DNA of 62,425 nt, the filler included, from Choristocarpus tenellus KU-1152 (Eukaryota > Protista > Phaeophyceae): the NCBI GenBank assembly GCA_964200185.2. It is 11 parts of 11 records of this genome, joined end to end, with 100 filler letters (N's around TTAATTAATTAA, not from the genome) between each part and the next. Parts side by side here need not be neighbours in the genome. Positions count along the whole stretch, not along the records: positions 1 to 7,826 come from CAXNAD020005529.1; positions 7,927 to 14,611 come from CAXNAD020007567.1; positions 14,712 to 17,511 come from CAXNAD020024646.1; positions 17,612 to 21,243 come from CAXNAD020018842.1; positions 21,344 to 26,702 come from CAXNAD020011044.1; positions 26,803 to 36,096 come from CAXNAD020003808.1; positions 36,197 to 41,444 come from CAXNAD020011359.1; positions 41,545 to 44,363 come from CAXNAD020024481.1; 3 more parts are not named here. One strand, given 5' to 3'. The notes beneath the pieces were generated by a model. That model saw nothing but the letters and a program-made list of their open reading frames with translations. It was not told where the DNA came from and searched no databases. Both the position numbers and the translations under genes were made by a program. Positions 1-62,425 of the stretch are shown piece by piece. Position 1 is the first letter of the stretch, and each line of letters opens with the position of its first letter.

Positions 1-49
1 GGTATGGTGGGGTGGGGGGGTGTGGGGGTGGGGGGGTGGGTAGGGGGGT

Positions 50-94
<45 letters not shown>

Positions 95-2689
95 AAGAAG
101 TGATGTTTCGAGTGCGAGCAACGGTAGTGCCGTGACAGATCGGTGGATGGGAGGCGTGATGGTGTGGTTATTGGCGAGTCAGTATGGTGTGTGTGAGATT
201 TTTTTTGCATGCGGAGCAGTTTGGTCTTTTGCTCAGAGTGTTTTGCTTTTTGATATTGAGGACCCTACATGGTTGGATTGCTCTACCATAGTAAGAAACG
301 GGGGGTTGTTTTGGTGTTACGGTGTGGTTGGGGAAAATGTTGGTGGTTGGTCTATGCCACAAACCTACCGTCGGGTATCTAGGAACCAGCTGTTGGCGAC
401 CATGGAGATATATATACATATATATATATATTTATTTTTTTAATGTGCACAGAGTTAATAATTGCGTAACTGCCCCATGGGATTTCTGGACTAGATGGCG
501 CCCCTGCGGGCTGTATGGGCACTGCTCTATGTGCTTGTGTTGAATGCGTTGATTGTCTCTCCTGTACGCAAGAATGGTTTAGGGTCATTGTCGTGCACAA
601 CCGTGGAAGGTTCGTGCCGTCATCATTGTCGACAAGAGGTACAGCCATAAACCATAACCGTAATAAATAGATCAACAGAACTGCAGCCGTAGAACAGAAC
701 ACACCGTGAGGCCGAATGAAAAGTGCATCCATCGCTGTACTGCTGCAGACATTTTCGTTTTGTGCTTCATATTTGTGTTTTTGCACAACCAAACCCTGGC
801 ATTGAAATTCCCTATGTAAACACTCCGTACCGGTACAAAATGCATTTTGTACCGTGGCAGAGACAACAGCGGTCCTTACAGCCGTGTCATCGTATCTGAC
901 AGTTACATCTAACACATAAGCATATGGTTGGACAAGCCCTTACGCAATCGGGAAGAGATGAATTTGATTGAGTCCAACCGTGTAGGACCCTGTTAGAATT
1001 AAGACATCAATTGTCGCAATGCGGTGACAAGCTTTTGTTCGAATCCTATACCACGAAGTAATTCGAGTTATTTGTGTCTTTGGGCGGAGGCCATGTGTCA
1101 TTCTTTTTTGTACCATTGTACCCTCTGGTGTGTAAGGGGTCTGGTGGTAAGAGATAACAACAGGGTTTGTAAGGTAGTTTGCATTGATTTTTGTTTTTGT
1201 TGGTTGTCTATAACGTTAAAGGGTTTGGTCAAGGGATGCCAGGCGTGATTGTAGGCACTGATGGTTCAAGGATCATCCCAGGGTCTACTGTACTTCCTTG
1301 GACCCCCTGATGAATCCCAATACCTCTTGATCAGAAGAGGTGGTGCTTGTAGGTGATCCAGGGTCTGTCCATGATGTAAAAATCCCCATTCCGAAGGTTG
1401 TTCGTGGCAAAGACCCTCAATTCCACTTTGTCGCAAGACCTGACTCCTTCTGTCGGAGGTGAACATTCTAGTGACAAGCACAGAGAGCGGCTTGTTTTCG
1501 CTTCAGGTTTGAGCATGACCCCAACATTCTTTGAGACGCATGGTCTAAGTGGGATAGATACCTTTGACAGTACAGCAGGATGAGTAGCGCAGCCTCCGAG
1601 GTGTGCTTCCCAGGGCACTCTGTGTAGATGTACTTCAAAGTACTTGCCGAAATGACCCAACACCTACAGTGCCATTGGAAGACTTCACTTCTGACATCTG
1701 AATTGGTTATGGTACCTGTCTTCACTCAAGTCGTCCATGCAATGGTGAAGATAGACCATGATGATTCTTCCTCTCCACCTCACTCAAACAATGGGTCATG
1801 ACAAATCCACCCAGGAGAAAGTCCAATGTATTTTGCTAATCTATTGCTCTCTTTAAGGCAGGTCACCATGGAAAGGGACTAGGAGGAGGTGAAGAATGTG
1901 TGATGTGGGTATGTGACAGGGGGGGCCGATGCCTGGCTTCAATTATCCCATTGCGGGATCTTGTACCTTGACCTCAAGCATTGAAGTACTTTTAACAGGA
2001 CATACAGCAGTGGACTTGTATAGCTGGATGTGTGCACACTTTTTGGGGGAGTGCAACAATGTGGGACTTGGAGCAGTTTTGGAAGGATCTTTTATTTCAG
2101 CTCAAGAAGTCTGGATTTGGTTAGCTATCCAGTCAAGACAACCATTGTGTCACCCACCACACCACCACCCGTCAAGAGTCAGAGGCCTTCCCCACCATCT
2201 TGGAGTCCTACCCACTTGATTTCTTTTGAGGGGTATACCTCCTCAGCCTTCGCTCCTATCACCAGACACAACCAGTCCTTGGCAATGAAGAAAAAGATCC
2301 AAAAGAAAACAAATGTTGCGAATGTCAGGAAGAACAGAAAAAAAGGAAAACAAGGTTAAAATAAACACACACACACACACACACACTCAGCACCCCAAAG
2401 AAGCACAAGCATGAGCCCTCTACCCCTCCATTGAGCAGTGGGGAGAGTGGGGTGGAAAAATATATTGAAGAAAATCCCCACCTGTTCTTTACCACAATGG
2501 CCCATTCTTTGTGTGTGTCTGTGTTTAACCTCTTACCACGAGCCATCTCCTGCTTGATATTTACCTCCCATGCCAAGTTTTCCTACTCCCTCTTGTACCT
2601 TACGCTCCCTTCACTAGTCAGAACACCCAAAGGCAACACTGCAATAAAAATAAACAAGGCAAATGAATCAACTCTACTCTACGCCTAGA

Positions 2690-3650
2690 GAGTCCTGGAT
2701 GTTGGCCTGTGTGCCAGGTCATGGCAGTCAGGCATCCATGAAGGTCATCTTGACCTTGCACAGAAAGTTGCTAACAAAATCAATGCCATACTCCTCTACC
2801 AGTGCCTTCAACTGTGCAAACATTACCGTCACTTCCACTACCAATGGGGGGAGACAGACTAGTCTCACAACTTCTTGCTCCACACCAGCTGCCCTATCCT
2901 TCCTGTCGCACCATTCCTCCACCTACAGACAAACACCCGTCAGCTCCTCTACCATGGCTGCCTCCACACCCTGCTCTTCTCCATGCTTCACCCAAATTGT
3001 GCTACAGCCATGTCCTGCAAAAATGAACAATGTTTGCACTAGAGAGTGCACTAAATACCTTGTGTTTGAGTCTCTCCACGTTCTGGTGCATCTCCTTCAT
3101 GGCCAGACTCGACCTTGTCAGGGTTGCCATGAGATACTCAACCACTGGATCTCTTTCATCGTGGGTCGCAGACCTACGTGCCCACTGTGTCCTGTGGGTC
3201 TTGGCTTCATCTCTGAGGCAGGAGTGTATTGATACTCAGCAAACACTGAGCAATGGTGTCCTTGTGCATCTCCTCCCACACCCCGAGCAAAAGGTCAATC
3301 CCATTGAGTACATGTGCGTCATAACCCTCAGCTAGCCCCATGGTCCCATAAAGTACTTCCCCCAGGAACTGAGAGACCGTGTCAATGATGGGAAGAGAAA
3401 GCTCTCGTGAACTATTGGTGTTTGTACAATGCACGCCAATATGCAGTCCTTTTGGCCCCTGCACAGAACGGTGCAACCCCCCCTCCTCGATGAGGTAGAT
3501 TTTCCTTGGCAGGACCCTGTAGAAAGGCCCATCTCAAGTGCATTATAGAGACGGTCCAGGCTACACTCCGCACATCCCTTGTGGGTTTACTTTGGGGATA
3601 CATGGCCTTCCTTTTGGCCCTCACTTTCACGACTTGATTCATTGAACCTT
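2690..3650 (-). mobile_element. Degenerate pogo/Tigger-like (DDE_1, Tc1/mariner superfamily) transposase remnant
   Basis: Minus-strand peptide HVLNGIDLLLGVWEEMHKDTIAQCL (ORF 3207..3476) resembles the C-terminal 'vldai.l...W..v...tI.ncf' segment of DDE_1/CENP-B-type transposases. There are multiple stops and frameshifts and the region is heavily CpG-depleted. Confidence 0.4.
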
Positions 3651-3654
3651 ACAT

Positions 3655-3835
3655 GACTCAAAGTATCTGGAGGGGGTGGCAGCTGTCCATTCGGGGTCAA
3701 TTTTTTTATGTCGCGATTTTTGGGTGATTTGGGTGCATACGTCAGATGGCTGATGTAGGTGCACTTTTCCTGGTTTTGGTCCAAATGGACACCCTGGTGT
3801 AGACCCCCTCCCCCCCCCAACAGATACGTTGGGTC
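3655..3835. mobile_element. MITE family A (~180 bp, TIR (G/A)(G/A)C(T/C)CAAAGTATCTGGGG), complete copy
   Basis: Begins GACTCAAAGTATCTGGAGGG and ends CAGATACGTTGGGTC. Internal sequence matches the copies at 10326, 37300 and 38090. Confidence 0.85.
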
Positions 3836-5374
3836 ACATTCCCCCTGCCTCTCAACTGCTTTGCCACGACTGTTGCACCACCGCTATTGAACCACACACT
3901 TCACTAGAAGGTCTAGGATATCCCCCTTTTTTGCTCAAGGTAAAGTCAATTGCGTTCACCTGCACACCTGATCCCTTTCCGACACTCTGTTCTGACCCCT
4001 CATTACCCTGGGTTAGGGGGTCCCGTGGTCGCAACACTTACGGTGAGCACTGTGCTATATATACCCTAGAAGTTAGGGTTGTGGATCAAAAGCATTTGTG
4101 AGGTAGAAGTTAAATCAACTCAAAGAATTTTGATGTGCTCTATTTTCAGTGAACTGTGAACATAGTGCTGCTGCGGCGAGACAAGATGATCAGGCCCCCC
4201 AGCACATGAGCGACCCCACCAAAGGTGCAAAAATATATGTGTGTTTTCTTCATTTGTGTGGTCTTATCCCCCACACCCAGACACACTTTGATGTTTGTAT
4301 GAGAGACTTTCGAACGTACCTTTTTGGAGGAGAAAAACTGGGTGAAGAGTTATCAATCGGAACATGATTTGAGCAGTGATTTTTTAAAAGAGAATGGTTA
4401 GCTTTATTCTGAGCTATCTTTTTCTACTTTTGTGTAATGTGTGACTGGACAAGACCTGTTACTGTAGCTACTATAGCCTTGAGTTGTTATCCGCTCTGTG
4501 GCCACTCCTGGCAGCCTCCCATGCATCCACCTTCATCCCCAAGCATTGCACAGGAAGACTAGGAGCTACACAATATTGTAAGGTTCATATGGCCACTCCA
4601 TGCAAAAAATCGGTTATTTTAGAGCACGAAAAACAACCATACCCGGCAGCCAGCAGCAGTAAAATCAGTTTTACTTGGGGTGCCTAGGACTGCACACATA
4701 AAACTCCAATGGCACTCCGTTCCATGCCCAAATTATTTTCCCCAACCGATTCTTGAGTGCTTCCTGCAAGATGGTCCTCTTTCCCTTTCTAATCATCTTC
4801 ATTTGAAATGTAGTACTATTTTTCATATTTATTTGGGGTGAATGGGCTTAGAAAGCGCGCTGTGATATGGCCAGTGTTCATGTGTCAAATGTATTCTATC
4901 CAGACATTCACAGGTGAAATTTCCTAACGTGGCGGGATCCATGGTTTTCATTCACTACTTCAACATATGCAGCCGCCAGCTCGGTACAAGTAACTCCGAA
5001 CATGGCCAAGTCCATGGCTGTCACTGCTTTAACATAGCCAGGCCACCGGCTGGACCTATACAACCAAGTTCGAACTTGACCGAGTCTATGTCCACCAACT
5101 GTTTCACATGGTTGGGCCACAGGCCAGTCTGTGGCCCGGATGGTGGACATGCTGACTTATCTGCCCGGTCTGGTGAAAGGCCCTGGTTGTTTTCACATTG
5201 CTATAGGCTAAACAATATTGAGTCAAAGAAGTAAGAGGTGTCCAGAGTTGCATTTAAAGGATAGTGACAAAGATGTTCAAATTTCTGATTTTTTTACAGG
5301 TTTGTGCAGGACAGTTTCTGAATTGTGTTGGCAATGTTTCAAACAAGAGATAAATAAACGCTCTCAAGTCAAAC

Positions 5375-5462
5375 TTAGAACTTCATCCATCGAAATCTGA
5401 ATGAATTGCAAAAGACTGAAAAACCGGAATTAAAATGTAAAACGACCAAAACCTTGGTACCC
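5375..5462 (-). repeat. Dispersed repeat, probably a DNA transposon terminus; related copy at 55205..55295 in the opposite orientation
   Basis: Reverse complement GGTACCAAGGTTTTGGTCGTTTTACATTTTAATTCCGGTTTTTCAGTCTTTTGCAATTCATTCAGATTTCGATGGATGAAGT aligns by eye with GGTACCCAGGTTTTGACCGTTTTGCAGTTCAAGCCAGTTTTTCAATATTTTGCAATTCACCCATATTTCTATGGATGAAGT at 55205. Confidence 0.65.
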
Positions 5463-5744
5463 TTGTTCCCTTTACTCATATCAATAAGGCAACTTGTTTA
5501 TCTCATCCCTAGGTCTACAGCACCAACTAGCCATTATTCTCCACATGTTATAGGATGAAATGGAAGTCTTTGAGAATATTTAAATGCCTGATATTCAAGT
5601 ATCTTATGTTGCTGCATGCTTCTTCTGTCCGAGGTTAGCAGGTCAAACTTGATGCAAGTGAATGAACCCAGGTGTGTAATCCATGAGCACCCTTCCACCC
5701 CCATTCATCCTCCGCAACTGTACCTGCTTTGTCTCTCTTTGCAG

Positions 5745-5991
5745 ATCTGGGAATGTAGAAGGGGCAAGCACAGAAATGGTTAACAACGACATTGCATTCT
5801 ATGGGCAACTTCTGGCCTTGACTGTAGGTGGATCTGCCTTGGTCAAGTACGGCGAGCTGTTTGTTGACTTCCCATTTCAACCTACATACACTGCAGCCTT
5901 GGCATTGATTGGGCTGCCCACGCTAGTTAATGTGAAGAAGTGGGCGGATAGAAGCAAAGATCCTTCTGCGCCCTTTGAATATTTCCTTTGA
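5745..5991 (+). CDS. Terminal exon of an algal membrane protein; resembles the C-terminal extension of algal Ycf49-like (DUF2499) proteins
   Basis: Polypyrimidine tract plus TTTGCAG acceptor, then SGNVEGASTEMVNNDIAFYGQLLALTVGGSALVKYGELFVDFPFQPTYTAALALIGLPTLVNVKKWADRSKDPSAPFEYFL*, with two hydrophobic helices. The family call rests on recalled similarity only, and upstream exons were not found. Confidence 0.5.
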
Positions 5992-6849
5992 TCAATCAGG
6001 GACATGAAAACGCAACCTTCAAGAAATACGTATTAAAAAATGTGCTCCAGCAAAGGTTGGTGCCATAACAGCAAGAGGAAATGCAAGGGACAATGCTTAA
6101 TGACAAGACCAGTGTAGCGCACACATTAGACACGGTAGATCAGAAGAGGTTTACTATCTACATTACTTTGTTGGATCTACCTTCCAAGAGCAAGTTGGGG
6201 ATTAGAGGCCACTCGTGATTTCGAGGGCAAGCAGGCAGTTATCTTGGATCATTTTTTTGTTTGCCATTTTTCCTGCATCTTTTAACATGGTTTGGAAACG
6301 GGAATTTAAACTGTCTCTCATCATATTGTGGCATGGGAGCACAATCAATTAGGGGATAGTGGTGGGTCTGCTACGAGTGATTATGGCGTAATGGCGCTTG
6401 CTTGCTTACTTCAGTAATAAGTTAACCTCTAGCTTGTTATCCCAGGCAGTAGATTAGAAGAGTAAGCAATCGTGTGGGAAACCCTGGTGGGTCACCTATT
6501 TCAAGTACCAATGTCCTGATTGTGAGTCTGCTGTGCATTGCTTTGTACTCGCTGCCTCTTGTGTGGCTTTGGGTGGTCAGAGTTTTTGCCAGCTAAGGCT
6601 ACATTATGCGACAACTCTATGTTGTAGTGATCAATACTTATGTGTTAAACATGTCCATCCATGACATATAATTTGTGGAATCATCCTGCAAGGATCCCTT
6701 TGCTTGGTGGGGCTTGCACACTCTAGATGTGAGACATTCAGTGAGAAAGTGATTTGCTGTTTGTCCATCATGCTAAGGTGATCCCTGGTGACTTGTAGGA
6801 TGCTATGAACAACAGACTGCTGAAAAAAGAAAAGTGACCCCAGAGTCAA

Positions 6850-7560
6850 CTGGTTCTAGCTATTGTACTCTTGCGGGCCTTACCAAAACCTTGATATGTT
6901 TGGAAGGAGGTGGTTCAGGCAGGTAAGTGATGGAGACTTCAGGCGAGTCACATTTGTTCTTTGTTCTTGGGTGGCATAATCCCACCAACATGATGGTGCG
7001 ATGACCAAACAATCACCTCTTACTGTATTGAGAGTTGAGCCACCAACATCTGATGTCCTCTTGTCCACTTGGAATAGTGTAGTCTTTGTGATAAATATTC
7101 CAATCATTTCAGAATGTGAGGAAGGAGAAGAGTGCCACGTTGTCTATTATCTTGTCATCTACTCTGTAATTCACCTACTTAGCCTGTGTTTTCACGTATA
7201 GGAGTGTTCAAAATCATCATATAGCATTCACAAACGCTTGTCAACAGATATTGACATCTTCGAGCATTAACTTGTCGTATCCCCATTCTTGATTATCTTC
7301 TGTTTATACAAGATACAAGAGACCAATATGCTGACCACATTGCGAGCCCCATGCCCTCAGACCTTGACCATGAGCTTGATGCGATGCTGACCACATACCA
7401 TCAACCTTGGGCTAACGATATCTTGATCAGATCGTTCATGATGTCACATTTATATCTTGCACTTCATTTTGCATTGATGAAGTCGAGTAATATAATGGTC
7501 CAATAGTGTAATAATAGTTACACCTTTTCCCCATTTGCTTCCAGGGCTCACTTTTTGGAC
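6850..7560 (-). mobile_element. Highly degenerate Copia-like gag/protease remnant
   Basis: Broken frames give DYTIPSGQEDI / DVGGSTLNTVRGDCLV / NVTRLKSPSLTCLNHLL, similar to the Copia protease-adjacent region, downstream of a G/R-rich gag-like stretch at about 7350..7400. Confidence 0.3.
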
Positions 7561-7826
7561 AATCTCAAATCATGTTTACATGACTTCGAGGCCCATCAGA
7601 TAGGGAAGTGATGTGAAAGGCAGGGTTGTCTGTTATCATACAGTTATTGCCGTATGTCATACAACACCATACCGATTGAGGTTCCTTTCAGGAATCCCGG
7701 ATTCAAGTGGAGGATATTTCGTGAGATGGGGGCGTGGAATCTTTTTAAGAGACCAGACCCAAAGTATCTGGGGGGGGGGGGGGGGGGGGGGGGCACCCAT
7801 CCATATTTTTTTTACTTTTTTATATC

Positions 7827-7926
7827 NNNNNNNNNNNNNNNNNNNNNNNNNNNNNNNNNNNNNNNNNNNNTTAATTAATTAANNNNNNNNNNNNNNNNNN
7901 NNNNNNNNNNNNNNNNNNNNNNNNNN
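7827..7926. other. Artificial contig linker N44-TTAATTAATTAA-N44 (first of ten)
   Basis: Same six-frame-stop linker at 7827, 14612, 17512, 21244, 26703, 36097, 41445, 44364, 51360 and 59567. A separate 10-N gap lies at 27525..27534. Confidence 0.98.
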
Positions 7927-9924
7927 TGGTAGGTACGGTGTTGATGAAGAAAGAAAAAAAAAAAAAAAAAAAAAGGTCAACTGGCTGGGTAGGTAGATGA
8001 TTGCTTCACGGGAGAAAAAGAACTCAGAGAGACTGAGCAACTTGCAGCTGCAGATTATAGCATGAGGGACGATCCTCCAGTGGACCAGGCTATGAATCTG
8101 TTTCCTCGTCCCAAGTCCTGGTCACAAAGTTTACTCTCCTTTGCTTTGTATTCTCAACAAAGTTTGTACAGGCTCTTCCTTTTTTCTTCCTCCCATTTCC
8201 CCTCCCCTACATCTATGCTTACTGTTGACAGTTGGGTACCTAATTCAATTTCTAAGGGCTGATATCCTCAGGTGGTTCTTTGGTCCAAGTCCTCCTATAG
8301 AGTTCAGTTTTATTGAGGGTAGAGTAGGATTATTCGTAAACTCACTTTCTTCCCTTCTCTCACAGATGTGTCTTCCCAATCAACTCTACAATGAAATTAC
8401 ATCAACTCTCAGCCCTTTGATGCTTCCCTCTCAAGTTGCGTACATCTAACCACAGTCTCACATTCTCCAGATATATGATATTACGATCTATTATTACTCT
8501 GAAGTTCATGTCAACAGAATCCCATACCATTTTAGGAACTAAACCGCTTTGGGGGAGCTCTGGACTCTGCTGAGGGAGGATCTCTCATGATAGCTGGGGA
8601 TGAATTCACTACTGTGAATGGGTGAGGGATCACATGGACTTGTTAAACGAGAGAAGAGCTAGGGGGAATCTCTCACAGCCGGCTGACTATTTCAATTTGA
8701 TTGAATGTGTGTCTGGATTTTCTGGATTTCATTGGAGAAAGGAGATACAGCACACAACCTCCATCCCTAACTTGAAAAAGAGATAGTTCAACAAACTTGA
8801 AATTATCGTGGTCCACACTTGAAAATCTGCCACCAAAATGATCCATGTGGGGAGCGAGTTACACAACGATCACAATAACTTGTTAGCTTGTTAACTTGTT
8901 TACCAATTGCTAACTACTTTCAGCGTATGCCCCACCTGTAATGGTGTTCCCTGACGCTGACTTGCTGCCCCCAATCCGGTCCAATATCCCTATGATGGAT
9001 TGAATGAACTGGCAAAAGTTCAACACATTGTGGCTCAGCATACATTTTCCGACTGGAATATGGAGCCTGGGAACAGGAAGCTGTCCTAGTCCCAAGTATG
9101 GTTAGCAGAGGAGCACATTTTGGCCAAGCTGTTCAGGTGAGGAAGAAGAAGTATACAATTTCTTCAGCAATGAGGATGTTCACTCTTGCAGGCACGGATG
9201 GGTGTTAATTTTGTAGGGAGGGGATGAGCTACATGGATAGAAGTTAATTCGGTAATGGGGAAAAGATCAAGTTGGACAATTGACTGATACCATGGACTTA
9301 CACACTACAGTGGAATAGTATAACTTGTTTCACCTTCTTTCTGGTTGCAAATTGTTGAGGTATATCCACTTTGAAGTCAACATTCCCTCCACAGTGTCAA
9401 GCACAACATGCACATCATATTGCTGATGTCCTCCACGGGCTGCTAGATCTGTTCTATCTGCTCAAATAGCTGAAAGCCAATTACTAAAATCGCCGGGAGT
9501 GCGAGTTTGTTTCACACACTTAGTACCATCAGTATACATCCTGGTGCTCCAGCACTTGAAGAAATCTACATTTTGCTGCCTTCAGGGTGTTCATATCCTA
9601 GAAGACATTCCACTCAAGTTGTGAACAACTCCTGTTAGCAAAGAGCAATTTAGTCTTTATTTTCAAAAAATAATTTGAGTGATCTGTTGGGAAATATACA
9701 TTTTCAAAATTTGTTGAGGAGAGGAATAGATGATGCGAGGCATGGGAAGTGGCAAAGTGGGAAAACCTTCTTCACTTACCGAGTTAAAGGCTACAGAGAG
9801 GTGACTCATCCTAGTGCAACAGGACCAATTTCAACCTTGGTCTGACCTTTTCTAAGACGTGTGTCAAAGTCACCCACCAATAACTTCTCTTTCATGACTG
9901 GAAGTCCCAATCCCCCGAGAAAAG

Positions 9925-27556: not shown

Positions 27557-27588
<32 letters not shown>

Positions 27589-38089: not shown

Positions 38090-38271
38090 GACCCAAAGTA
38101 TCTGTGGGGGGGGGGATATTACACTAGGGTGTACATTTGGGCCATAACCAGAAACAGTCCACTTACATTTTATCCATCTGACGTAAGCAACCAAATCACC
38201 CAAAAGTCGCGACATGAAAAAATTGACCCCAAATGGACAGCCGCCACCCCCTCCCCCAGATACTTTGAGCC
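38090..38271. mobile_element. MITE family A, complete copy
   Basis: TCG|GACCCAAAGTATCTG...CAGATACTTTGAGCC|TCG (3-bp TSD). Confidence 0.88.
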
Positions 38272-51358: not shown

Positions 51359-53479
51359 TNNNNNNNNNNNNNNNNNNNNNNNNNNNNNNNNNNNNNNNNN
51401 NNNTTAATTAATTAANNNNNNNNNNNNNNNNNNNNNNNNNNNNNNNNNNNNNNNNNNNNGACTCAATCCCAAAAAAACACCCCCCCCCCCCCCCCCCCCA
51501 GATACTTTGAGCCAAAGTGGGTGGGGGGAGAAGGGAGAGTTGTATTGAAAGATCCACTGTGTGTAATGTAGAATTCAAGAATTTGAAGAGAGGGTATGAT
51601 TCCGTAGTAACAGCCAAAAGCCCTTTGAAAGAGAGATTCTCAGTCAAAGTTGGTGCCGTTGTATCTGATAAAAGTCTTGTCAAAGTATATCTCATTTCCT
51701 CTTAATATGCAGAGGGATCCACATGCCGGTTTATGTTATTGGCAAGCCAAAAAGCAAGTCTCAAGCCTAAAGACAGTGATGGCCTTGCGCTGTGTATTGC
51801 TGGTTGAGTTTGTTGTTACAGGTTTGATGTTTCAAGATGTGTGCTTGAAAACTTTAGCAACTATAAAATGTGAAGGGGGAAGGTAAACACTCTCAACTGT
51901 TTTGAAAGAGTTTTATTTATCACCGGGTGAATATTTTGTTACAGAATTGATCACCAGGACGCGCACTTAAAACCTTGCTAAGCAATAGCAGGTAGAGCTA
52001 AACTCCTTCCTCTACGTTCTTGCCCTATTCAACGGTGGAGTCTGTTGCTCTACCAGGCACTTGAACTTAGGTGTTATTTTAAGCTTAACAATACAACATT
52101 AGGATGGTTTTAACATATGTTTTTAGACATGTGATGTTAATACTTTAGATCTAGAACTATTGTAGTGACTGCATTATGTTGAGGGCGCTTACCTCAGGCA
52201 GACAATTTTGTGAAATTTCTGGTCCCATGCCGTCAAAGATGTTAGATGTCTCTCTATCGCTGTGACCCTTCCCTGCCTCCCCTCGACATTTTTTCGTCAT
52301 CAAACTTGCCTACACATACTGCTCACCTCCATCCCCTCAAACCTTCCCCAGCTGACCTCGTATCCTTGCTTGTTTCTCTTTTTTCCATGAGCCTGACACA
52401 CCCAACTCAATATTGTCATTACCGTATCTGCATCACCACATATCCCTGATGGATGAAAAATATGATAACACATGATGATGGATGATGTATCATGCCAGCG
52501 CGCTGCTGTCTTTGTGGGCAAGAATGTTCTCGGAGATGAGCGTGCCGTAGACCGCACAGGACAACTGTTACGGCGGGTAGATATTGTCAGCTGCAAAGTG
52601 GTATAGGTAGAGCTCCTGGGATGGATGTCATTTATTGTGCTCTGAGCGACATTTGAACCCGTCAAAAGTTGCCTGTGAAGCTACCATTGTTTTGACGTGT
52701 TTTTAATTTCCAGGGTTGGCTTATGCAAGGGTCTGGTAGTTTCAGCTTCAATTGGTTAGTTTGGTAGACGGGAAAGAGTCTGCTGTTGTACTCCAGGTTG
52801 GCCTCCTCAGTCTCACCCAGTGATGCCATATACCTAAGACACCAATGCTCAGGAGAAGACTATATTACCTTTTTTTGTATGAGGAGCGTATTTCACATTT
52901 TATCCTTTTGTTGGTTATTGGTTGTGTTCAGTGGAACTACATTGCCTTGCGTCATGCATTTGTTACAAAAGGACACCATGCAGACCTTGAGGGCATATTC
53001 AGACAAGACATGTGTGTGTGTATGGAATGATATTCAACACTTTTACTCTGTAACTGCACCCGACTATTTAATGCTTGTTGTGTTCAGTGGAACAGCTACT
53101 AATTTACTTTTTTCATTTATGACGATGCTGTGTGTGTGATGCAGAAACTAGGAAATGTTCATACAACGTAACCGGTCAATGTTGATGTGTGGAGGTATTG
53201 AGGAAGCACTGTTGCCCTCTTACTGGAACCTCCTGGTTAATAACAGGGAAGTAAACGTAGTCAAACTATCACTGGTTCACTGCCAATTTTGAGGGTAAAT
53301 TAGGGATTATTTTGCACTGTCTCAGTATATAATGAGTTTTTTCCCCTGGACATGATTGTCTTATTAATAGAACGCTCCTAAAAGAGACGAGGTCCAGTGG
53401 ATGCATTTTTTTTTTTATCAAACTCCAAGAGACAACACAAGGTGTAGAATTTTGCCTTGAATATTCCAACAAGCGTCTG

Positions 53480-54650
53480 CTTGAGAAAGTTGGAGGTGAA
53501 GGCATGTACAGAGTGGGACTAGTTGTGTAGAAGTTTTGTAGAAATCAATACCACCCATGAGGTAGGGCACATCAGCCAAAGGATGAAGGTTATTTACTGA
53601 CGACAGGAAATTCCAGTGGTGATGCCTTTGTGATGCTTTATATTCCAACAAAAGAGGTCCCAGAAACAGGTCAAGATACTTTCTTGGAGAACCTGTACAC
53701 TGTGCTGCAACAGATATCAGTCATGGACAAACATGATATGATGGGCATGGACACCTGCAATGGAAGGAGAGGTGAAGGGGGAGGAAATATCAACAACAGG
53801 ATACTTGGGGCATATGGTGGTGATGTGCTAAACAACAATGGTGAGCGACTGTTTAATGTTTGCAGAGATAGACTTGCCCTCATCAACACATCCTTCAGTG
53901 TACCAGAGGGAAAAGGGTCCTACATGTGCATGCATGAGTGAGAGAAGGGGTATCTCCACCTTGATCATATCATCACGCACCAGGAATAACACTGCCTTGT
54001 ATACAATGAGAGTGAGCCCACTCTTATCAGCAGAATCAAACCAATGTATCATATCGATATCAGTTCGCCTTCTTGATTGACTATTAACTTCCAAGAGGTG
54101 TGCTTTGCTCAATAGACATCCCCGCATATTTAGCCAACCTTTGAGAACTGAACTGGTGAGTGTAATTGTAGACAAACTCCTGCTGGTAGAAGCAGTGGAA
54201 AACAAGGACGCAGATGGAAAGTGGATATCAACAGCATGGCACCTTCACTCAGAGCCCGTTTGCTAGAAGCTGATTCAGAAGAAGTGCTACCAGAAACCAT
54301 GTCAAAGTTGTTGCAAGGAGGATGATACGGAAGTGACCAAGCCCAGGTAACTTTCTTGGAGCCATGGCAGGAACTTGAGTAAGCATGGCGGCAGCAACAT
54401 ACAGACCTCAAAAATTGCCATCTTCAAGGAGATGTTGAAGGTGCCTGTAAAGACTGAAACTGGCGAGGGCGTCTGCCTTGCATGCAGACACCAGGGAGAT
54501 GGGAGAATTCATTTGTGGTTGGGATCAAGATGGATTTGTTTGACACCTGAAAGGCTTCGCCATAGAGAGGAGAAGACAGAGGGCCTCCTAATACATCCAA
54601 GACAAGTCTGGTCAGCTCGTGAGTCAGGACTAATCAAGGAGCAATGAGGG
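53480..54650 (+). mobile_element. Degenerate non-LTR retrotransposon (RTE-like LINE), AP-endonuclease region
   Basis: YIPTKE...QDTFLENL...MDTCNGRRG...ILGAYGGDVLNNNGERLF...LALINTSF matches the APE motifs YAPT / GDFNA.G / NDNGERL / L..NTFF, with stops downstream. Confidence 0.8.
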
Positions 54651-54680
54651 TGATGTGTTGAGTGAGGTGCTGCTAAATGA

Positions 54681-54955
54681 GACCCAAAGTATTTAAGAGC
54701 GTAGGTGTTTTGCCCTGCTTGTCTATTTGGGGCTTGGATTCCTGCGGGTTTTTTATGACAGTTACCTACTCTGAAATGTTTTGGAGTAGTTAGGAGTAGG
54801 TTTTTGGTAAAATGTATGCAACTATGAAGGTGTGTCTGGAACAAGGATATTGACGCTTGCTAACAAACACGATAGCCAAAATCACCTCAAAATCGTAACA
54901 TTGGATTTTGGACCCCCAAACGAACGCGGCCCTACCCTCTTAAATGCTTTGACTC
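54681..54955. mobile_element. MITE family B, diverged copy
   Basis: TGA|GACCCAAAGTATTTAAGAG...CTCTTAAATGCTTTGACTC|TGA. Confidence 0.85.
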
Positions 54956-56535
54956 TGACCTGCCAGTCACTATCGACCCTATTAGTGCTGATCCCCTCAA
55001 TTAATGACAAATCTGGGTAGGGTGCCATCTCCAAGAGGGAACAGAAGTGAGCAAAGAAGAAGCAAGTCAAGGAAGAGATGAACAAAACCGACATTTGAAT
55101 AAGCAGAAACAAAATAACACTTTGTCCCAAAGAAGTGTTGACAGAGAGGGGTGGTGTTTGAGGTCAATGCGATTCCAGACATATCCGAGCTAATATAAAC
55201 GAAAGGTACCCAGGTTTTGACCGTTTTGCAGTTCAAGCCAGTTTTTCAATATTTTGCAATTCACCCATATTTCTATGGATGAAGTGAAAGTTTATGAAGT
55301 AATCTGAGTTTTTTGGGTGGAAGAATTCTGGTTGGCGGGGGGCAAAGGACAAGCGATGGGAGTAGAAAGAAAAAGAAGAAAGCAGGAAGAGAACAAATGA
55401 TTAAGGAATGACTGGCTAAGAGAAAGGGGAAAAGTTGTAAGGAAATGAGTGGTAGGAAGGAAGAGGGATTGTTCAGTATTGAATAAGAGGGCTGAGAACC
55501 AGGGGTACAAGACGAGGAGGGCGAGACCAAGACAACCTCCGAGCAAGCTCTCCTAACCGAAGTATGGCGGAAAAAAGAGAGAATGAGAACGGAAGGAACA
55601 AGACAATGTGGGAAAAAATTGGGGAAAACGATGGGAAGGAAAGGGGGATAGAAGAGAGAAAAAAGATGGAAGGATGGGCAGAAGAAAAAGGATGGAAAGA
55701 GAATGAAGAAGAGATAGGGACAATGACGTTGAATAGGATGCCTTCAAAGATCGAGAAGGTGAGAGATGGGATTCTTAGCAACGGGGGAGGGAGAGGAAAG
55801 AAGTGGGGGAAGAAGAAGATTACGAAGCAGAGAACAGGAGTAAAGGAGACCCAAGCCAACCCCGGACCCAGAACAACGAGATAGCGAAGTTAATAGCGAG
55901 AATAGATAGGATGATGGAGATCTTGCAGGATTACACAAAATCACAAACACAAAATCCAGAAAGGGGGGGGGTAGACAGAGGGATGGGAGGGGGAGCCAGA
56001 TCAACAGTGAGAGAAAGTTCGATATCATCAACAACAATGGCGGAAAGGATCAAAGAGAAGTCAATGATCCAAGCATGGAGCAGGGTCGAGGTGAGGAAGT
56101 ACTTCGTACTCCTTGGATTCATTCCCTTGTTTATTAAAACGGGGAACGCCAGAGCAACGCAATATGAGCTACAGCGAATAGTGGACAAGACAACGGATGT
56201 GACGAAAGAGGTGGCCAAACAGCCGGAAAACTTGGCAGCCTTCACAATTAAGGACTACATACCAAAGGGGGAGCTGGGGAGGAAGATGTACGGGGGGGAT
56301 TATGAACTGCCAGATAATTTCGACTGCTTTGTGGCAGCAATGGAGAGGTTATGCAGGTATGGGGAAAGTTGGAATCCAGTTCAGAGGAAGACAGCAAGGG
56401 TGATAGAGGATTTGGAAGAAGCCAGATGCAAGGTACGAATGTTTTACGGAGCAAACAAACCTACGTTGTTAAAGAGTCCGCGGATCGTGGAACTAATTTT
56501 CAGAGCAGTGGGGGAGGATCTCCAGGTATGAGAAA

Positions 56536-56793
56536 GAGTCAAAGTATCTTAGAGGGTAGAGCCGCGTCCGTTTGGGGGCCAACATTCAATGTTGCGATTT
56601 TGATGTAATTTTGACCATCGTGTTTGTTACGAAGTGCCAATATCCTTGTTCTGGACACACCTTTTCATAACGTACACATTTTACCTACTCCGAAACGTTT
56701 CGGATAGGAAAATGTCATAAAAAAAGCCATGGGAAGCCAAGCTCCAAACGGACAAACAGGGCAAAACTCATACCCTCTAAGATACTTTCACTC
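56536..56793. mobile_element. MITE family B, inserted in the gag-like ORF of the YR element
   Basis: AAA|GAGTCAAAGTATCTTAGAGG...CCTCTAAGATACTTTCACTC|AAA. Confidence 0.9.
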
Positions 56794-58485
56794 AAAAACA
56801 GATAGCTACAGCAGCAGATATTATAGGGAACAAGTTCAACGCCCCACCAACCCCTGAAAAGTGGATACCACTCCCTCCGAGCCCCTACTCCACGTGCTTG
56901 AAGATGACACTGAGTCAGGCAAAAAATATGCTATCCGCTTTGTACAGCACGAGTCCTGCTCCCGGTCAATGAAGAGGGTGGGAACATGCGGGGAGACAAG
57001 AGCGTCAAAGTCCCCTAGACCAGACGAGAGAATCAGGGCAGGAGTCTCGAATGGAGGGGGAAGGACATACAACCCGTGCTTTGTGTGGAAGGTGGGGCAG
57101 GAATGTGACTTCTTGAAAAAGAAAAGGATCAGACTAATGCCAAGCCTAAAAACAAAGACACCAGAAGACGCAGGCCCACCCCTCCCCGGGGTGGGCCGGC
57201 AGGACAAGACCAATGGACGTCAGTACTACCACAACATATGAAGGGGACGTCAGGGATTCCAACACCCGGGTCGATACGCTGGACAGAGAGACATAGATGA
57301 GCCCCCCATTTTGTCTGCAAAAAAAATGACAGGCTGGCATACTACACAGGTAGTGGTAGGATGGAGGATAGGCACAGAAAAGATGACCATTGCCTTACCA
57401 AATGGAAAGTTGAAGGGAATTAAGGCGTTGTAAGCAGAGTGGCCAGAATCGAAGTCGACAGCCAGGGTGAGGGAGGTATGGGTGCTGTTGGGCTGACTAT
57501 TCCACATGTCGTACATCATACACCCAGGGAGGTTTTGTCTTTGGCGACTGGTACAACTGATGAGGTTGCACCAGTAGAGGGATTGGTTGAGAAGGATAGC
57601 GAGTGGAGGGGGGGCAGGGCGAACAGAGGGAAGGTTCGAAAGAACGAGATAGGGAGATTAGGCTAGGGAGAGAATTTAAGGAGGACTTGCATTGGTGGAG
57701 GTGGGTGGTCGAACAGGGTCTGGCAGAGGAAGCAGAAAACTTGAGTTCCCCCTTCTTGGGTTTTGTGCCAAGGCTCCCAAGGATGACATGGTTACTTCTT
57801 CGCCTTTCTTGACTCCAGCTACTAATGCTTGAGCACGGCGTTTGGTATTCAGACGCGTGTTTTTCTGCAGTAGGGGGGTACAATGTAGAGACGGGTAAGT
57901 GGTGGAGGTATGATTTCCCAGGACATATGAAGAATGATATTACACGTAGTGTGATTAAAGGAGAAAAAAGGATTATATCAATGTCTTAGAGTTACTAGGG
58001 ATGGTCATGAATACATGGATACTGGTCATGAAGGTAAAGGGGAAGGCAGACAAGAAGGGAGATCCAGTGTTGCCTAGAGGGGAACAACTACTCTGCAGTG
58101 TATTGGTTCCATAAGTGTGGGGAGGCAAAGGATAGGAGGGCGGCGAGATTGATGAGAATAGTGGGGATGTTGGAGATAGCAGGGGAATGGTAATTTGCAG
58201 CAGAACACGTTGCAGGCAAAAAGAATGACCTAGCAGATGATATTTCGAGGTGGATGAGGGATGAGATTCAGTCTAACCTCAACATGTTTGCCCATGTATT
58301 GATTGGCAGGAATAGCCCATGGGTTCGGAAGGGAAGACGGTTTGTTTGAGTGCCTTGCAGTATTGTACGCCAGAGGATCGGTTGCGCCATCTACTCAGAA
58401 GTGTTACGAGGCAGCTTGAAACCAATGGTCTGAGTTCCGTATATACAGAGGATTGAGTCGGTGGTTAGACCCTAGGAGCTGAGAG

Positions 58486-59422
58486 ATGGATGTAATGAAG
58501 GCCCTAGCAGAGTTCATGCGTTTCTGTTGCGGGAGTAGGAGGAACCAAGCAAACACAGTGAAGGGTAAGATAGCAATCCAGTACTACCACAAACATCTCC
58601 TCAACTTCCAACTCCCCACAAAACATTTCATGATTCAATCGGTACTCAAAGGAATAGGCAGGAGCCACACAAAAGTAGGGAGCGAGCCCAGGAGGAGGAG
58701 ACCCTTAACATGGAGAATGATTGTAGAGACAAAGCAATGCACTGAATTGCGCTAGGTAGGGAAGGTGAATTGACAAAGTTGGGCTTGGGTTTCTCATTCT
58801 TCTTCTTCGCCAGAGCTTCGAAATTGTGAGCCTATGATGAAGGGGGGGGAGTACATGGAGATTTTGCAAGTAAGAAGGAGGGACGTAGTCTGGAGGAGGG
58901 GAGTAGAAAGATTAAGTTGGGAGGATAGACATCAGGCAGGGAAAGTAGAGGTAACATTTACAGGGGTCAAAGGGGGACCAGGGTAGGAAGGGAGCAGTGT
59001 TGACAAGGTTTAAGGTAGATAATAAAGGGAGAGAAGAAAGTATGGGAGGTTGGGAGGTGGCGATGGCTATTGTGGAATGTTTCCCAGAACTCCCACCGGG
59101 CGCCCTACTGATGACATGGAGGCAAGAAGGGGGATGGAGGGTGATCACGAGGGGCCAAGCGACATGCGTCCTGAGGAGAATGGTAAAGGAACTTAAGCTA
59201 AGACCAGAAGAGTATGCCTTGCATTCGGGTAGGATAGGGGGAGCCACGAGATTGGCAAACATGAGGGTATCAGAATTGGTAATACAGAGGGAGGGAAGAT
59301 GGAAGTCGAGGGCTTTTATGGGATACGTAAGAGCTAACCAGAGGGACCCAGTGTTGGTACCAAAGGGCTTGGCAGAGAGTAGGAAGGATTGGGTCCAACC
59401 AGGGCAGGAGGTAAGGGGATGA
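58486..59422 (+). pseudogene. Tyrosine recombinase of the YR retrotransposon (frameshifted, in-frame stops)
   Basis: Catalytic set recognisable: FFFARAS (R), GSKGDQGRKG (K), YALHSGRIGGAT (HxxR), GRWKS (W), FMGYVR (Y). Split over ORFs 58486..58755 and 58997..59422. Confidence 0.9.
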
Positions 59423-59495
59423 GCTAGAAAGAAATCAACCCCGAAGGGGAGGGAAGGTCAAGTTCCGGCGGGGTAGATGTCTTCTAGCTCAAAGA

Positions 59496-59566
59496 GAGCC
59501 AAAATATCTTAGAGGGTAGAGCCGCGTCCATTTGGGGGTCAAAATCCAATGTTGTAATTTTGATGT
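59496..59566. mobile_element. MITE family B, truncated by contig end
   Basis: GAGCCAAAATATCTTAGAGGGTAGAGCCGCGTCCATTTGGGGG. Confidence 0.8.
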
Positions 59567-60434
59567 NNNNNNNNNNNNNNNNNNNNNNNNNNNNNNNNNN
59601 NNNNNNNNNNTTAATTAATTAANNNNNNNNNNNNNNNNNNNNNNNNNNNNNNNNNNNNNNNNNNNNTACCTCGAAAATCAATGAGACCCAGGAGGAGAAA
59701 CACGCCGGCTAGCTGTGAGGCGACCACAGCAACTACCCCGACAAGCTTCCAGGAAACCACCCATGGTGGTTTCGCCTGTGTTGATGGTCGAGTGGACATG
59801 TAGGCATGAGCTTGGAGTTGGAGGCAAAGTCAATCGAAGTGGAGATGGTGGGTAAGAGCGACCTTAGACACACAGATTTGTTCTTCTCCAAAAACGAAAT
59901 CACTCCGATTATTTCGAGAGCTTAAGGGACCTCGAATTTCTTAATGCAGTCACAATATGACTGTTCTTGAACTCGTCGTTGTTTCAGTATCTCGAATTTC
60001 GAGATTCCACGTGTCAACAAATAAAAATACCTTCAATAATATCACAACAATATTGTAGTATATACACAGTTCAAGAAACTAACAGTTCTAAAAAGAGACC
60101 ACAAAATTGAGAATTGAAGTTCGTTCCCGAGATTTCAAATAGGTCACCAACATCTTCGGCACCCTTACTGCCTCCCAACACAGCGGAGAGGTAGGAGAAC
60201 TCGAGCCCTATTAGGACACCTAAGTACGACCAAAATCACTTTTGGAGCAGGGAGTGGGTAAAATAATTATCTCTATTGTGAGTGTGTGTCAGTACAGCGA
60301 AATTGTATTCATTCGGATAATGTGAACACTTCTCTACTGGATAATATTATACACGCTCCCAACTAGTTCACTTGGATTGAAATTTTGTCTAACGCAAGAG
60401 CTTGCTTGTCTGTCCTTCATCCAGGCAGTCCGAA

Positions 60435-61911
60435 ATGTCTTCTTCCCCCATGTACGCGGTTATCAACTCGGTGGCATTCATCGCCAACGCCTTCGTTGTC
60501 GGGACAAGTACTCTTGGCTGGTGGGGTAAGGACAATGCTGAAGTATCCGACGAGAATCCCACCCTTGTGACGCCTGCAAAGTGAGAAGTTTTCCAGCACT
60601 CTAATGACTCCATGGTGTTGCATGATAACGCTGTGTTTGTTAAACAAACTTGCAGTGTGTACTCTCCACAGTTCTGGAATCTTGAACGTCGAAACCCTTT
60701 CCTAACTACTCTTTGTCTTCTCCAGCTGGGCCTTCGCTATATGGGGTGTCATTTTCTTCTCTGAGGCAGTATTCACTATTTGGGAAGCACTACCAGTCAA
60801 CTGGGGCAAGAGGGTTGTGAATGAGGGGATCGCTGGATGGTTTGCAGCAGCATGTCTCTTTCAGGCAAGTTGTTTGAAAAATGGTGCATCCACCGGGGAC
60901 AGCATCCTCTCGCTTGGAAATGAGCCCTTCAAACCGGTATCTCTAGATGTCCCATCTGACTCTCAAAAAGGCAAACTGGAACTGGTAGAGCTATTGTCAA
61001 CCTGGAAGACCCTTGTATACAGAGCGGCGAGATCGAGAGAGCGCGAACTAAAAGTTTACCTATTTCTTCGCCCCTTGTTGGCCTTGACCTCCAAACCTCT
61101 CCTCACACATCATGTGTCGTTTTCCGCAGATCGCCTGGACATTTGCCTTTGCACAGGAGAGGCTGGCTCTGAGTGCAGCCCTGCTCCTAGGCATTGCTGC
61201 CTGCCTGGCTATAGCGGTTGTTAGACTATCTGAATTTAAGCGCGAGGAACTGACAATATTTTCCTTCCAGTATTGGCTGGTCCACTTCCCCATCGGACTT
61301 CATGGAGGCTGGACTTTGGCAGGTGATCACATGCTTGTATTTTTAGCTTCCTTCTACTCAAGCAGATGGAAGAAGAATGAATCTTAATAGGCACAGAGAC
61401 AGTAATCCAGTGGTGTACTGAACCTTTTAAAAGTTACTGTCAATGTTTCCTGGTTCTTTCTTTGCTAGTGCATCCTCTTGTCTACTCTTTGCACATTTCT
61501 ATTGTCCCATTTCATCTATGATTGGACCCCAATCAACCAACCCACCTGCATCCCACACCCTGTCCAACAGCTTCACTCGTGAACATCAATGTGGCATTGG
61601 AGGATCCTACAGTCAGTACTGAGGTCACAGCTCTTTTGCTGACATTGGTTGGTGCTGGTATAGTAGCAGTGTTTGCAAGCACAGTTTTTGGTGACCAGGT
61701 GTACCTGCTAGCTATTGCCTGGGCGTTGGCGGCAGTGTCAGATGAGACGGGCTACAGGACCCAGATTTTGGGAGCTGCAGTTGCCCAGGGCGTTGATGAT
61801 GCTCTGGCCGGATTGTGGATTGCTCTGTTGGTTGTGGCAGTTGGATCAGTGGTGGCGTCAAGGGCAAGGATGATGAAACGCCGTGAGATTATTCCCCCCT
61901 CATATGCATAA
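60435..61911 (+). CDS. TspO/MBR-related (tryptophan-rich sensory protein-like) multi-pass membrane protein, complete four-exon gene
   Basis: Exons 60435..60580, 60726..60864, 61130..61322 and 61571..61911. Motifs NAEVSDENPTLVTPANWAFAIWGVIF, FQIAWTFAF, HFPIGLHGGWTLAASLVNIN and DQVYLLAIAWALAAV. Intron 2 has a GC donor. Confidence 0.85.
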
Positions 61912-62425
61912 CATGATAAGAAGTGTGTATCAGTTACCTAGTGTAAGTGATGGGGTGCCAGGTTGAAAGTATACCTCTCTGGCTAGGAGTTTGTAACAAT
62001 TGACTGAGAAGAGATCATAAGGGGGCAAAATTTCAGTGCATTGGAGGTTGGAATATTTGTGAGTGGAATGTAGTGGAGGTTATCAACAATTGAAAGGGTG
62101 TTGCCTGTGGTTTTCACAGGAGAGGAAATTGCAAGGCATGTGATGCTGCAAAAGCATTGCCCTGCAATGCACTGTTCGCTTTTTTAATATCGCTGGGGGT
62201 GTCCATACAGGACCAATTGTGATGGTCCTCTGAGATATTTGAGGGGGGGACCTATTGTGTAGATTGTACCGTGGTCATGTATGTTAATTTTGATCCGATT
62301 ATTCCAGAAGGGAAGGTACTGAGCCTGTCAGGTTAGAGGTTTACTTGTACACATGACTTGTCGTGTTTGAGCAACACTCTTTTTTTGGCCATGCCGGATG
62401 GGTTGAATTGTCAACTAGCTCCACC

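What the first reader, a model, noticed from the sequence alone, without database searches (positions are those of the whole stretch)
1..62425. Vertebrate-like CpG landscape: global CpG depletion with CpG-rich islands over gene starts in an apparent brown-algal/stramenopile genome
Seen (hand counts, approximate): about 27 CpG in 30421..30720 (NDC80 exon 1), versus about 3 in 2701..3000 (pogo remnant), about 1 in 53641..53940 (LINE), about 7 in 19021..19320 (GC-rich internal exon) and 2 in 27241..27440 (NDC80 exon 3). CpG-rich sequence covers roughly 30300..32350 around the bidirectional promoter and roughly 59900..60600 around the TspO-like start. Known: 5mC deamination converts CpG to TpG/CpA, and model brown algae such as Ectocarpus are regarded as essentially lacking 5mC. 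Inference: this lineage has, or had, genome-wide CpG methylation of transposons and gene bodies with protected promoter islands, which would be an unusual epigenetic system for the group.
Basis: partly seen in the sequence, partly recalled or inferred. Interest (0 to 1): 0.8.

Follow-up and report, generated by a model that had tools for sequence, protein, structure and literature searches.

The report
Methylation footprint in early brown alga
This DNA from the early-branching brown seaweed Choristocarpus tenellus is short of CpG almost everywhere except around gene starts and some repeats, likely because it still methylates its genome the way its relative Schizocladia is known to, which would place the loss of DNA methylation inside the brown algae rather than at their origin.

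Summary
All 5 hand counts are exact. CpG observed/expected (o/e) is 0.47 over the window, 0.39 in background and 0.82 in CpG-rich segments of the same GC content; GpC is flat and CHG is not depleted. Synonymous sites in internal exons show the loss strongly (C before G 27 of 147, before other bases 167 of 255). Both tested gene-start loci (3 genes) sit in CpG-rich segments.

The organism is Choristocarpus tenellus: 248 of 249 residues of a named protein are encoded here, and NDC80 groups with Discosporangium. The pattern itself is published for the sister group Schizocladia (about 80% 5mCG, unmethylated promoter islands), and DNMT1 is published for Discosporangium. What is new is a footprint inside the brown algae proper, which a 2026 paper describes as lacking DNA methyltransferases.

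'Vertebrate-like' is overstated: depletion is milder, islands are not GC-rich, and only 2 of 8 CpG-rich segments are shown gene starts (the largest is high-copy repeat). Methylation was not measured, DNMT1 could not be searched in this species, no DNMT1-less brown alga was available as control, and the repeat mutation tests are mixed.

The parts
30351..32324 (.). Main CpG-retaining island over a divergent gene pair (o/e 0.88, GC 0.51)
   Evidence: HMM posterior 1.0; change points 30455-32305; 30221-30980 is the only Takai-Jones island in the window
30253..30924 (-). NDC80 first exon (CDS 30723-30253, plus 5' leader); o/e 0.85
   Evidence: Pfam PF03801; spliced contig of run X3 covers 30252-30924 with joint 29984/30252; o/e
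30925..31167 (.). Gap between the two divergent spliced contigs, likely the shared promoter (CpG 6, GpC 5)
   Evidence: contigs cannot fix the exact start sites
31168..31988 (+). First exon of the partner gene (ATG 31206; no Pfam family); o/e 0.80
   Evidence: X3 contig 31168-31988 and GT..AG joints to 32206 and 32606
27296..29985 (-). NDC80 exon 2 (29872-29985), intron 2 and exon 3 (27296-27439): CpG-poor gene body (o/e 0.24, 0.42, 0.14)
   Evidence: splice support
59667..60578 (.). Second island: upstream region and first exon of the membrane-protein gene (o/e 0.81 upstream, 0.94 in exon 1)
   Evidence: homologues align from residue 1 at ATG 60435
60435..61911 (+). Four-exon gene encoding P0069 (CAN0033600.1, Choristocarpus tenellus); identifies the species; introns o/e 0.44
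   Evidence: 248 of 249 residues in exact 8-mers; name
1100..3640 (.).
   Evidence: no Pfam support
53400..54660 (+). CpG-poor LINE-like remnant (o/e 0.24); label rests on a recalled endonuclease motif, no Pfam hit
36197..38300 (.). CpG-rich segment (o/e 0.96 over 36197-38000) that is high-copy repeat DNA, not a shown promoter
   Evidence: summed contig depth 10^3-10^5 in X1 against 15-20 for single-copy DNA
55000..59493 (+). Tyrosine-recombinase retroelement-like copy (o/e 0.52); second copy at 39046-41219 on the other strand, 70-73% identical
   Evidence: self-BLAST; Atlas hits to eukaryotic phage-integrase clusters at 0.97-0.98, Pfam share 10-14%
3650..44575 (.). Short repeat family A: 7 copies at 3654, 10323, 14453, 26570, 37302, 38090, 44464; used for the mutation spectrum
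37925..59566 (.). Short repeat family B: 7 copies at 37930, 40829, 46374, 49799, 54686, 56535, 59494; used for the mutation spectrum

Best explanation
The CpG shortage in this Choristocarpus tenellus DNA is likely the mutational footprint of present-day, genome-wide CG methylation that spares active gene starts. Shown: CpG is depleted and TpG/CpA enriched in introns, internal exons and old transposons; the loss is CG-specific; it is much weaker over about 1-2 kb around the tested gene starts; the organism belongs to the earliest brown-algal branch. Inferred: a retained DNMT1 methylates CG by default; 5mC deaminates to T, raising CpG transitions roughly 3- to 5-fold; promoters carrying H3K4me3/H3K9ac stay unmethylated, as measured in Schizocladia, so their CpGs persist; high-copy repeats are CpG-rich because they are too young to have decayed.
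For: CG-specific depletion at constant GC, with GpC flat and gapped C.G equal to G.C (0.877, 0.872). First exons CpG:GpC 103:104 against 98:228 in 19 internal or last exons, p 7e-6. Synonymous C before G 27 of 147 against 167 of 255 before other bases in internal exons, p 1e-20; in first exons 26 of 74 against 84 of 149. Island centred on two divergent spliced contigs. Repeat copies: transitions at consensus CpG 19 of 138 against 49 of 833 at other C/G, p 0.002. Simulation: o/e 0.40-0.46 needs a 4-5x multiplier and relaxes to 0.8 within 0.3 substitutions per site after loss, while NDC80 alone is 0.40-0.46 amino-acid changes per site from Discosporangium. Species; tree support 98/94. Literature: DNMT1 in D. 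mesarthrocarpum; about 80% 5mCG with promoter islands in Schizocladia.
Against: No 5mC was measured and no DNMT1 was found or searchable for this species (no genome held). The repeat tests are mixed: counted once per site 11 of 22 against 47 of 153, p 0.09; CpG against GpC 20 of 150 and 10 of 146, p 0.08; all-pairs test 134 of 429 and 142 of 518, p 0.22. The repeat ratio (2.3x, i.e. a true multiplier near 2.5-3) is below the 4-5x the background implies. The window-level CpG versus TpG+CpA correlation (-0.49) lies within its shuffle null (-0.42 +/- 0.075). Only 2 independent gene-start loci were tested; their 1-kb windows rank in the top 4.6% and 6.2%. 6 of 8 CpG-rich segments are not shown gene starts. 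PMC13076208 reports no DNMT1 in the brown algae it screened. No DNA of a DNMT1-less brown alga was obtained as a negative control.
Confidence: 0.65

Rival explanations
1. Relic: the lineage had Schizocladia-type methylation but lost it recently, and the CpG landscape has not yet relaxed.
For: The repeat-copy excess of CpG transitions is smaller than the background depletion implies and is not significant per site. The published DNMT1 statement names only D. mesarthrocarpum among brown algae. High-copy repeats keep o/e near 1.
Against: The simulated signal fades to 0.63 after 0.1 and 0.8 after 0.3 substitutions per site, so the loss would have to be very recent. Repeat copies about 8% from consensus still lean toward CpG transitions. 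C. tenellus appears not to have been in the reference set searched for DNMT1 (inferred from PMC12459048 adding it separately; Tables S11 and S21 not visible).
Confidence: 0.2
2. Not methylation: a context-dependent mutation or repair bias, or selection on CpG at promoters, gives the same pattern without 5mC.
For: No negative control from DNMT1-less brown algae was obtained. Two loci from a relative outside the brown algae are also CpG-poor (0.54, 0.60; GpC 1.18, 1.06) with unknown methylation state. TpG+CpA excess (1872) exceeds the CpG deficit (1469), so other biases also act.
Against: The CG-only context, the TpG/CpA product, the strength at synonymous sites and the relief at gene starts match what was measured in the sister lineage.
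Confidence: 0.08
3. Mosaic methylation: repeats and gene bodies are actively targeted, and 'islands' are simply untargeted sequence rather than protected promoters in a default-methylated genome.
For: The lowest values are in old transposons (0.24-0.27) and the highest at 5' ends; 6 of 8 CpG-rich segments are not shown promoters; the window holds little long single-copy intergenic DNA.
Against: All 11 pieces are depleted (0.32-0.68) and about 80% of the unmasked sequence is in the low state. In Schizocladia gene-body 5mCG does not scale with expression.
Confidence: 0.07

Closest known systems
Schizocladia ischiensis CG hypermethylation with demethylated promoter islands (Vigneau et al. 2026, PMC13076208; sections 6, 10 and 13 read in full, other passages, 3 of 4 supplements searched)
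   Same: CG-only context, genome-wide extent over genes and transposons, relief at gene starts; closest outgroup of this organism's class.
   Different: There 5mC was measured (almost 80%) and DNMT1 found; here only the sequence footprint is shown. Schizocladia lies outside the Phaeophyceae, C. tenellus inside. The paper's main text has 0 hits for 'Discosporang', 'tenellus', 'mesarthro' and 'deamination', and I saw no analysis of CpG depletion in the parts read.
DNMT1 retention in Discosporangium mesarthrocarpum (Denoeud et al., bioRxiv 2024.02.19.579948, passages; repeated in PMC12459048, passages)
   Same: Same order according to PMC12459048; predicts that this branch can methylate CG.
   Different: Gene presence only, in another genus; no methylome or CpG analysis in the passages read; status in C. 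tenellus not stated.
Vertebrate CpG islands (figures recalled, not from a call: bulk o/e about 0.2-0.25, GC-rich islands, about 10x CpG mutability)
   Same: Depleted bulk with CpG-retaining gene starts, including a divergent pair.
   Different: Milder depletion (0.39-0.47), islands no richer in GC than bulk, 1 Takai-Jones island, estimated 3-5x mutability; DNMT3 and DNMT5 are absent in the sister lineage.
Ectocarpus and Saccharina (PMC3145265 and PMC6916402, passages)
   Same: Same class, intron-rich and transposon-rich genomes.
   Different: Ectocarpus has no detectable 5mC and only DNMT2; Saccharina about 1.4% methylated C, mainly CHH. I obtained no CpG o/e for either.

Membership tests
Schizocladia-type DNMT1 CG hypermethylation | Signal confined to the CG context | tested here: met
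   CpG 0.475; gapped C.G 0.877 equals G.C 0.872, so no CHG-specific loss
Schizocladia-type DNMT1 CG hypermethylation | Covers gene bodies and transposons alike | tested here: met
   Sequence footprint only: introns 0.42-0.44, internal exons 0.43, old transposons 0.24-0.52; synonymous sites
Schizocladia-type DNMT1 CG hypermethylation | Discrete relief around promoters of expressed genes | tested here: met
   2 of 2 loci (3 genes); first exons o/e 0.80-0.94; small sample
Schizocladia-type DNMT1 CG hypermethylation | High measured nuclear 5mCG | not testable with these tools
   Only assembled contigs of 3 runs were served
Schizocladia-type DNMT1 CG hypermethylation | DNMT1 gene present | not testable with these tools
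   No genome held; no DNA methylase domain in 242 of 275 window ORFs of 70 aa or more scanned; reported for D. mesarthrocarpum
Schizocladia-type DNMT1 CG hypermethylation | Islands coincide with H3K4me3/H3K9ac | not testable with these tools
   No chromatin data available
Vertebrate-type CpG islands | Bulk CpG o/e about 0.2-0.25 (recalled) | tested here: not met
   0.47 overall, 0.39 background
Vertebrate-type CpG islands | Islands GC-rich relative to bulk | tested here: not met
   GC 0.455 against 0.448 over all 8 segments; main island 0.51 is mostly coding; 1 Takai-Jones hit
Vertebrate-type CpG islands | CpG o/e above 0.6 over gene starts | tested here: met
   0.88 and 0.84
Vertebrate-type CpG islands | DNMT3/UHRF1 writers and CXXC/MBD readers | not testable with these tools
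   No proteome of this species could be searched
5mC deamination footprint | Raised C>T/G>A rate at CpG among repeat copies | tested here: inconclusive
   2.3x, p 0.002 per copy but p 0.09 per site and p 0.08 and 0.22 against GpC
Transposon-restricted methylation or RIP-like mutation | Depletion limited to repeats | tested here: not met
   Single-copy internal exons are depleted at synonymous sites, p 1e-20
Discosporangiales (Phaeophyceae) | Protein identity and tree position | tested here: met
   248 of 249 residues of a C. tenellus protein; NDC80 with Discosporangium 98/94 and within Phaeophyceae 99/99; alternative placements p-AU 0.039; no named Schizocladia row in the tree

The most novel reading that the evidence does not exclude
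Choristocarpus tenellus is a living brown alga with a globally CG-hypermethylated genome and unmethylated promoter islands. The switch from 5mC to methylation-free, H3K79-based silencing happened after the Discosporangiales split, at the base of the big brown-algal radiation and not at the origin of the class, and may be tied to the H2A.X-to-H2A.N exchange and to the spread of inserted giant viruses reported for the same node.
Probability: 0.55. Interest if true: 0.6.

Novelty: new member of a known kind. Interest (0 to 1): 0.42.

Why it matters
Two recent papers disagree on when brown algae lost DNA methylation. One finds DNMT1 in Discosporangium and puts the loss after that branch; the other states that DNA methyltransferases are absent across the clade and that the loss accompanied its emergence. 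This window gives sequence evidence, from the second genus of that branch, that methylation was working inside the brown algae until now or very recently. It names a culturable species in which one nanopore or EM-seq run settles the question, and offers an in-group comparison for what replaced 5mC. The system itself is not new.

Tried and rejected
1. Window-level anticorrelation of CpG with TpG+CpA: -0.49 against a shuffle null of -0.42 +/- 0.075 (200 shuffles); rejected as evidence.
2. All-pairs repeat test over 50 self-BLAST pairs: p 0.22; the GpC control is contaminated by CpG-adjacent bases. The two retroelement copies differ at 15 of 21 YpG against 101 of 366 YpH sites (p 7e-5), but this is not independent of the depletion itself.
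3. GC confounding or assembly artefact: rejected. GC is equal, GpC is flat, and runs X1-X3 show 1 substituted letter over 8471 bases; X1 may be the source data.
4. The idea that all CpG-rich segments are gene starts: rejected for 36197-38300. ORF 382-939 in the first segment gave no Pfam support and no Atlas hit.
5. Control DNA from DNMT1-less brown algae: the metagenome scan gave 3 loci of 426 candidates, none a brown alga by best protein match; viral and prokaryote collections gave 0 of 8 and 0 of 19.
6. No RNA holder was listed by record; X3 was read as RNA only from its GT..AG joints.
7. Window as Schizocladia or another outgroup: rejected by the named protein match and tree.
8. PMC6336885 has 0 hits for brown algae or stramenopiles. 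Three look-ups of earlier scan findings returned nothing.
9. The weak Gardiner-Garden criteria segments and are uninformative here.
Full report
Observation. The five hand counts are exact: 27, 3, 1, 7 and 2 CpG. Over the window CpG o/e is 0.47, TpG/CpA 1.25 and GpC 0.85. After masking linkers and simple repeats, CpG varies between 122 windows of 500 bp far more than chance (chi2 253 on 121 df) while GpC does not (118 on 121). A two-state HMM splits the sequence into 49 kb at o/e 0.39 and 11 kb at 0.82, with GC 0.448 and 0.455, so this is not a GC effect. The loss is CG-specific: gapped C.G (0.877) equals gapped G.C (0.872). All 11 pieces of the window are depleted (0.32-0.68). The pieces are 2.8-9.3 kb long and joined by 100-nt N/stop linkers, so only within-piece context was used.

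Gene starts. Run X3 is not on record as RNA but gives GT..AG joints. One spliced contig covers NDC80 from 30924 downward and another begins the partner gene at 31168; contigs cannot fix exact start sites. The island 30455-32305 straddles this gap: 110 of 468 C are followed by G inside and 132 of 1371 outside (LLR 26.5, maximum 9.5 in 30 permutations on a coarser grid), with GpC nearly unchanged. The second gene starts at ATG 60435, where homologues align from residue 1, at the end of the second island. The three first exons have CpG:GpC 103:104; 19 internal or last exons, some RNA-supported and some chosen by homology or by eye, have 98:228 (p 7e-6). At third codon positions in 12 internal segments a pyrimidine is C in 167 of 255 cases before A, C or T but in 27 of 147 before G (p 1e-20); in first exons the figures are 84 of 149 and 26 of 74 (p 0.003), so even islands are partly depleted.

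Limits of the island claim. The HMM finds 8 CpG-rich segments. Two hold shown gene starts. The largest begins in high-copy repeat DNA, with summed depth in the thousands or more against 15-20 for single-copy DNA. One lies in a retroelement-like copy, one between two prenyltransferase-alpha exons, and three are unassigned. The two gene-start windows rank in the top 4.6% and 6.2% of 1-kb windows. Only one segment meets Takai-Jones criteria. 'Vertebrate-like' is therefore an analogy of layout, not of degree (vertebrate figures are recalled).

Is it deamination, and is it recent? In two families of 7 repeat copies, transitions occur at 19 of 138 consensus CpG bases and 49 of 833 other C/G bases (2.3x, p 0.002). 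Counted once per site this is 11 of 22 against 47 of 153 (p 0.09), and two cruder tests against GpC gave p 0.08 and 0.22. This line is suggestive only. The window-level CpG versus TpG correlation is within its null and was discarded. A simple context model needs a 4-5x CpG multiplier to reach o/e 0.40-0.46, and once the multiplier is removed o/e returns to 0.63 after 0.1 and 0.80 after 0.3 substitutions per site. NDC80 is 0.40-0.46 amino-acid changes per site from its nearest named relative, so a relic from the base of the class is unlikely; a very recent loss is not excluded.

Organism. NDC80 is 72% identical to Discosporangium mesarthrocarpum and 48-50% to Ectocarpales. In a 23-row tree it groups with Discosporangium (98/94), and that pair is sister to the other brown algae (99/99). 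In a 16-row tree without the long outgroups both alternative placements have p-AU 0.039. No named Schizocladia row was available. A search with the Discosporangium orthologue of the last gene returned 4 proteins, one named Choristocarpus tenellus (P0069, CAN0033600.1); 248 of its 249 residues lie in exact 8-mers of window 59667-62425, against 73 of 284 for Discosporangium. PMC12459048 places both genera in the Discosporangiales; NCBI still files them under Sphacelariales.

What is known. Vigneau et al. 2026 (PMC13076208; sections 6, 10, 13 read in full, other passages, 3 of 4 supplements searched, figures not visible) measured almost 80% 5mCG in Schizocladia ischiensis, with discrete unmethylated promoter regions carrying H3K4me3 and H3K9ac, one DNMT1 and no DNMT3 or DNMT5. 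They report no DNMT1 in brown algae; their main text never names a Discosporangiales species, and I could not see whether Fig. 1a includes one. Ectocarpus has no detectable 5mC (PMC3145265, passages) and Saccharina about 1.4%, mainly CHH (PMC6916402, passages). Nine library searches (read as listings, plus passages of nine papers) showed no methylome or CpG analysis for Choristocarpus or Discosporangium; the library lacks most subscription journals.

Mechanism. Most likely (0.65) a retained DNMT1 methylates CG by default, deamination drains CpG from gene bodies and ageing transposons, and active promoters are spared for 1-2 kb. The location and context of the loss and the identity of the organism are shown; the enzyme, the present methylation and the histone-based protection are inferred from the sister lineage. 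Rivals are a recent loss (0.2), a methylation-independent bias (0.08) and mosaic targeting (0.07). The main gap is the missing control: I obtained no DNA from a DNMT1-less brown alga. Two loci from a relative outside the class are also CpG-poor (0.54 and 0.60), which fits an older origin but has no methylation data behind it.

Verdict. A real feature, and a new member of a known kind. It works like the Schizocladia system; membership is not proven because 5mC and DNMT1 could not be tested. It fails two defining features of vertebrate islands. Its value is that it bears on a published disagreement about when brown algae lost DNA methylation and names the species to test. Interest 0.42.

Noticed in passing
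window 7827-59666 (10 places): Identical 100-nt linkers of N with a central all-frame stop motif join 11 short pieces; NDC80 is cut off after exon 3 by one of them, so neighbours across linkers may be unrelated.
   Followed up: partly
window 31986-32606: The partner gene shows two splice forms in run X3: with and without the exon at about 32207-32354. The skipped exon marks the downstream edge of the island.
   Followed up: no
window 3654, 10323, 14453, 26570, 37302, 38090, 44464 and 37930, 40829, 46374, 49799, 54686, 56535, 59494: Two very high-copy short repeat families share the same 9-bp end motif in inverted orientation, as non-autonomous DNA transposons would; summed depth reaches 10^5. 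Several linkers sit beside them or beside poly-G/C runs.
   Followed up: partly
window 39046-41219 and 55000-59493: Two decayed tyrosine-recombinase retroelement-like copies in opposite orientation, 70-73% identical, less CpG-depleted (0.52) than the LINE-like and pogo-like remnants (0.24-0.27).
   Followed up: partly
L001 1-1750; L002 1-5140: NDC80 loci 96% identical to P0013, a relative outside the Phaeophyceae in the tree, have CpG o/e 0.54 and 0.60 with GpC 1.18 and 1.06, and lack the intron found in the window's gene; L003 has o/e 1.04.
   Followed up: partly
literature: bioRxiv 2024.02.19.579948 says only two of 72 genomes have no inserted giant-virus regions, both Discosporangiales. This coincides with the DNMT1-bearing branch but could reflect fragmented assemblies.
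   Followed up: no
literature: PMC12459048: the two Discosporangiales keep H2A.X and lack H2A.N, unlike other brown algae, the same node as the reported DNMT1 loss.
   Followed up: no
window 60728-60853: The public model P0069 matches only about the first half of this exon, while the Discosporangium, Pylaiella and Scytosiphon orthologues align over all of it, so that model may use too early a splice donor.
   Followed up: no
window 109-1104, 16211-17370, 45292-46742: CpG-rich segments with no assigned gene start; 16211-17370 includes a long AAT microsatellite and telomere-like repeats; 45292-46742 appears by eye to hold internal exons of a minus-strand gene.
   Followed up: partly
window 11149-14169 and 21620-26087: Exons of an FG-GAP repeat protein and of a protein prenyltransferase alpha subunit (Pfam PF14312, PF01239), both CpG-poor gene bodies.
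   Followed up: partly
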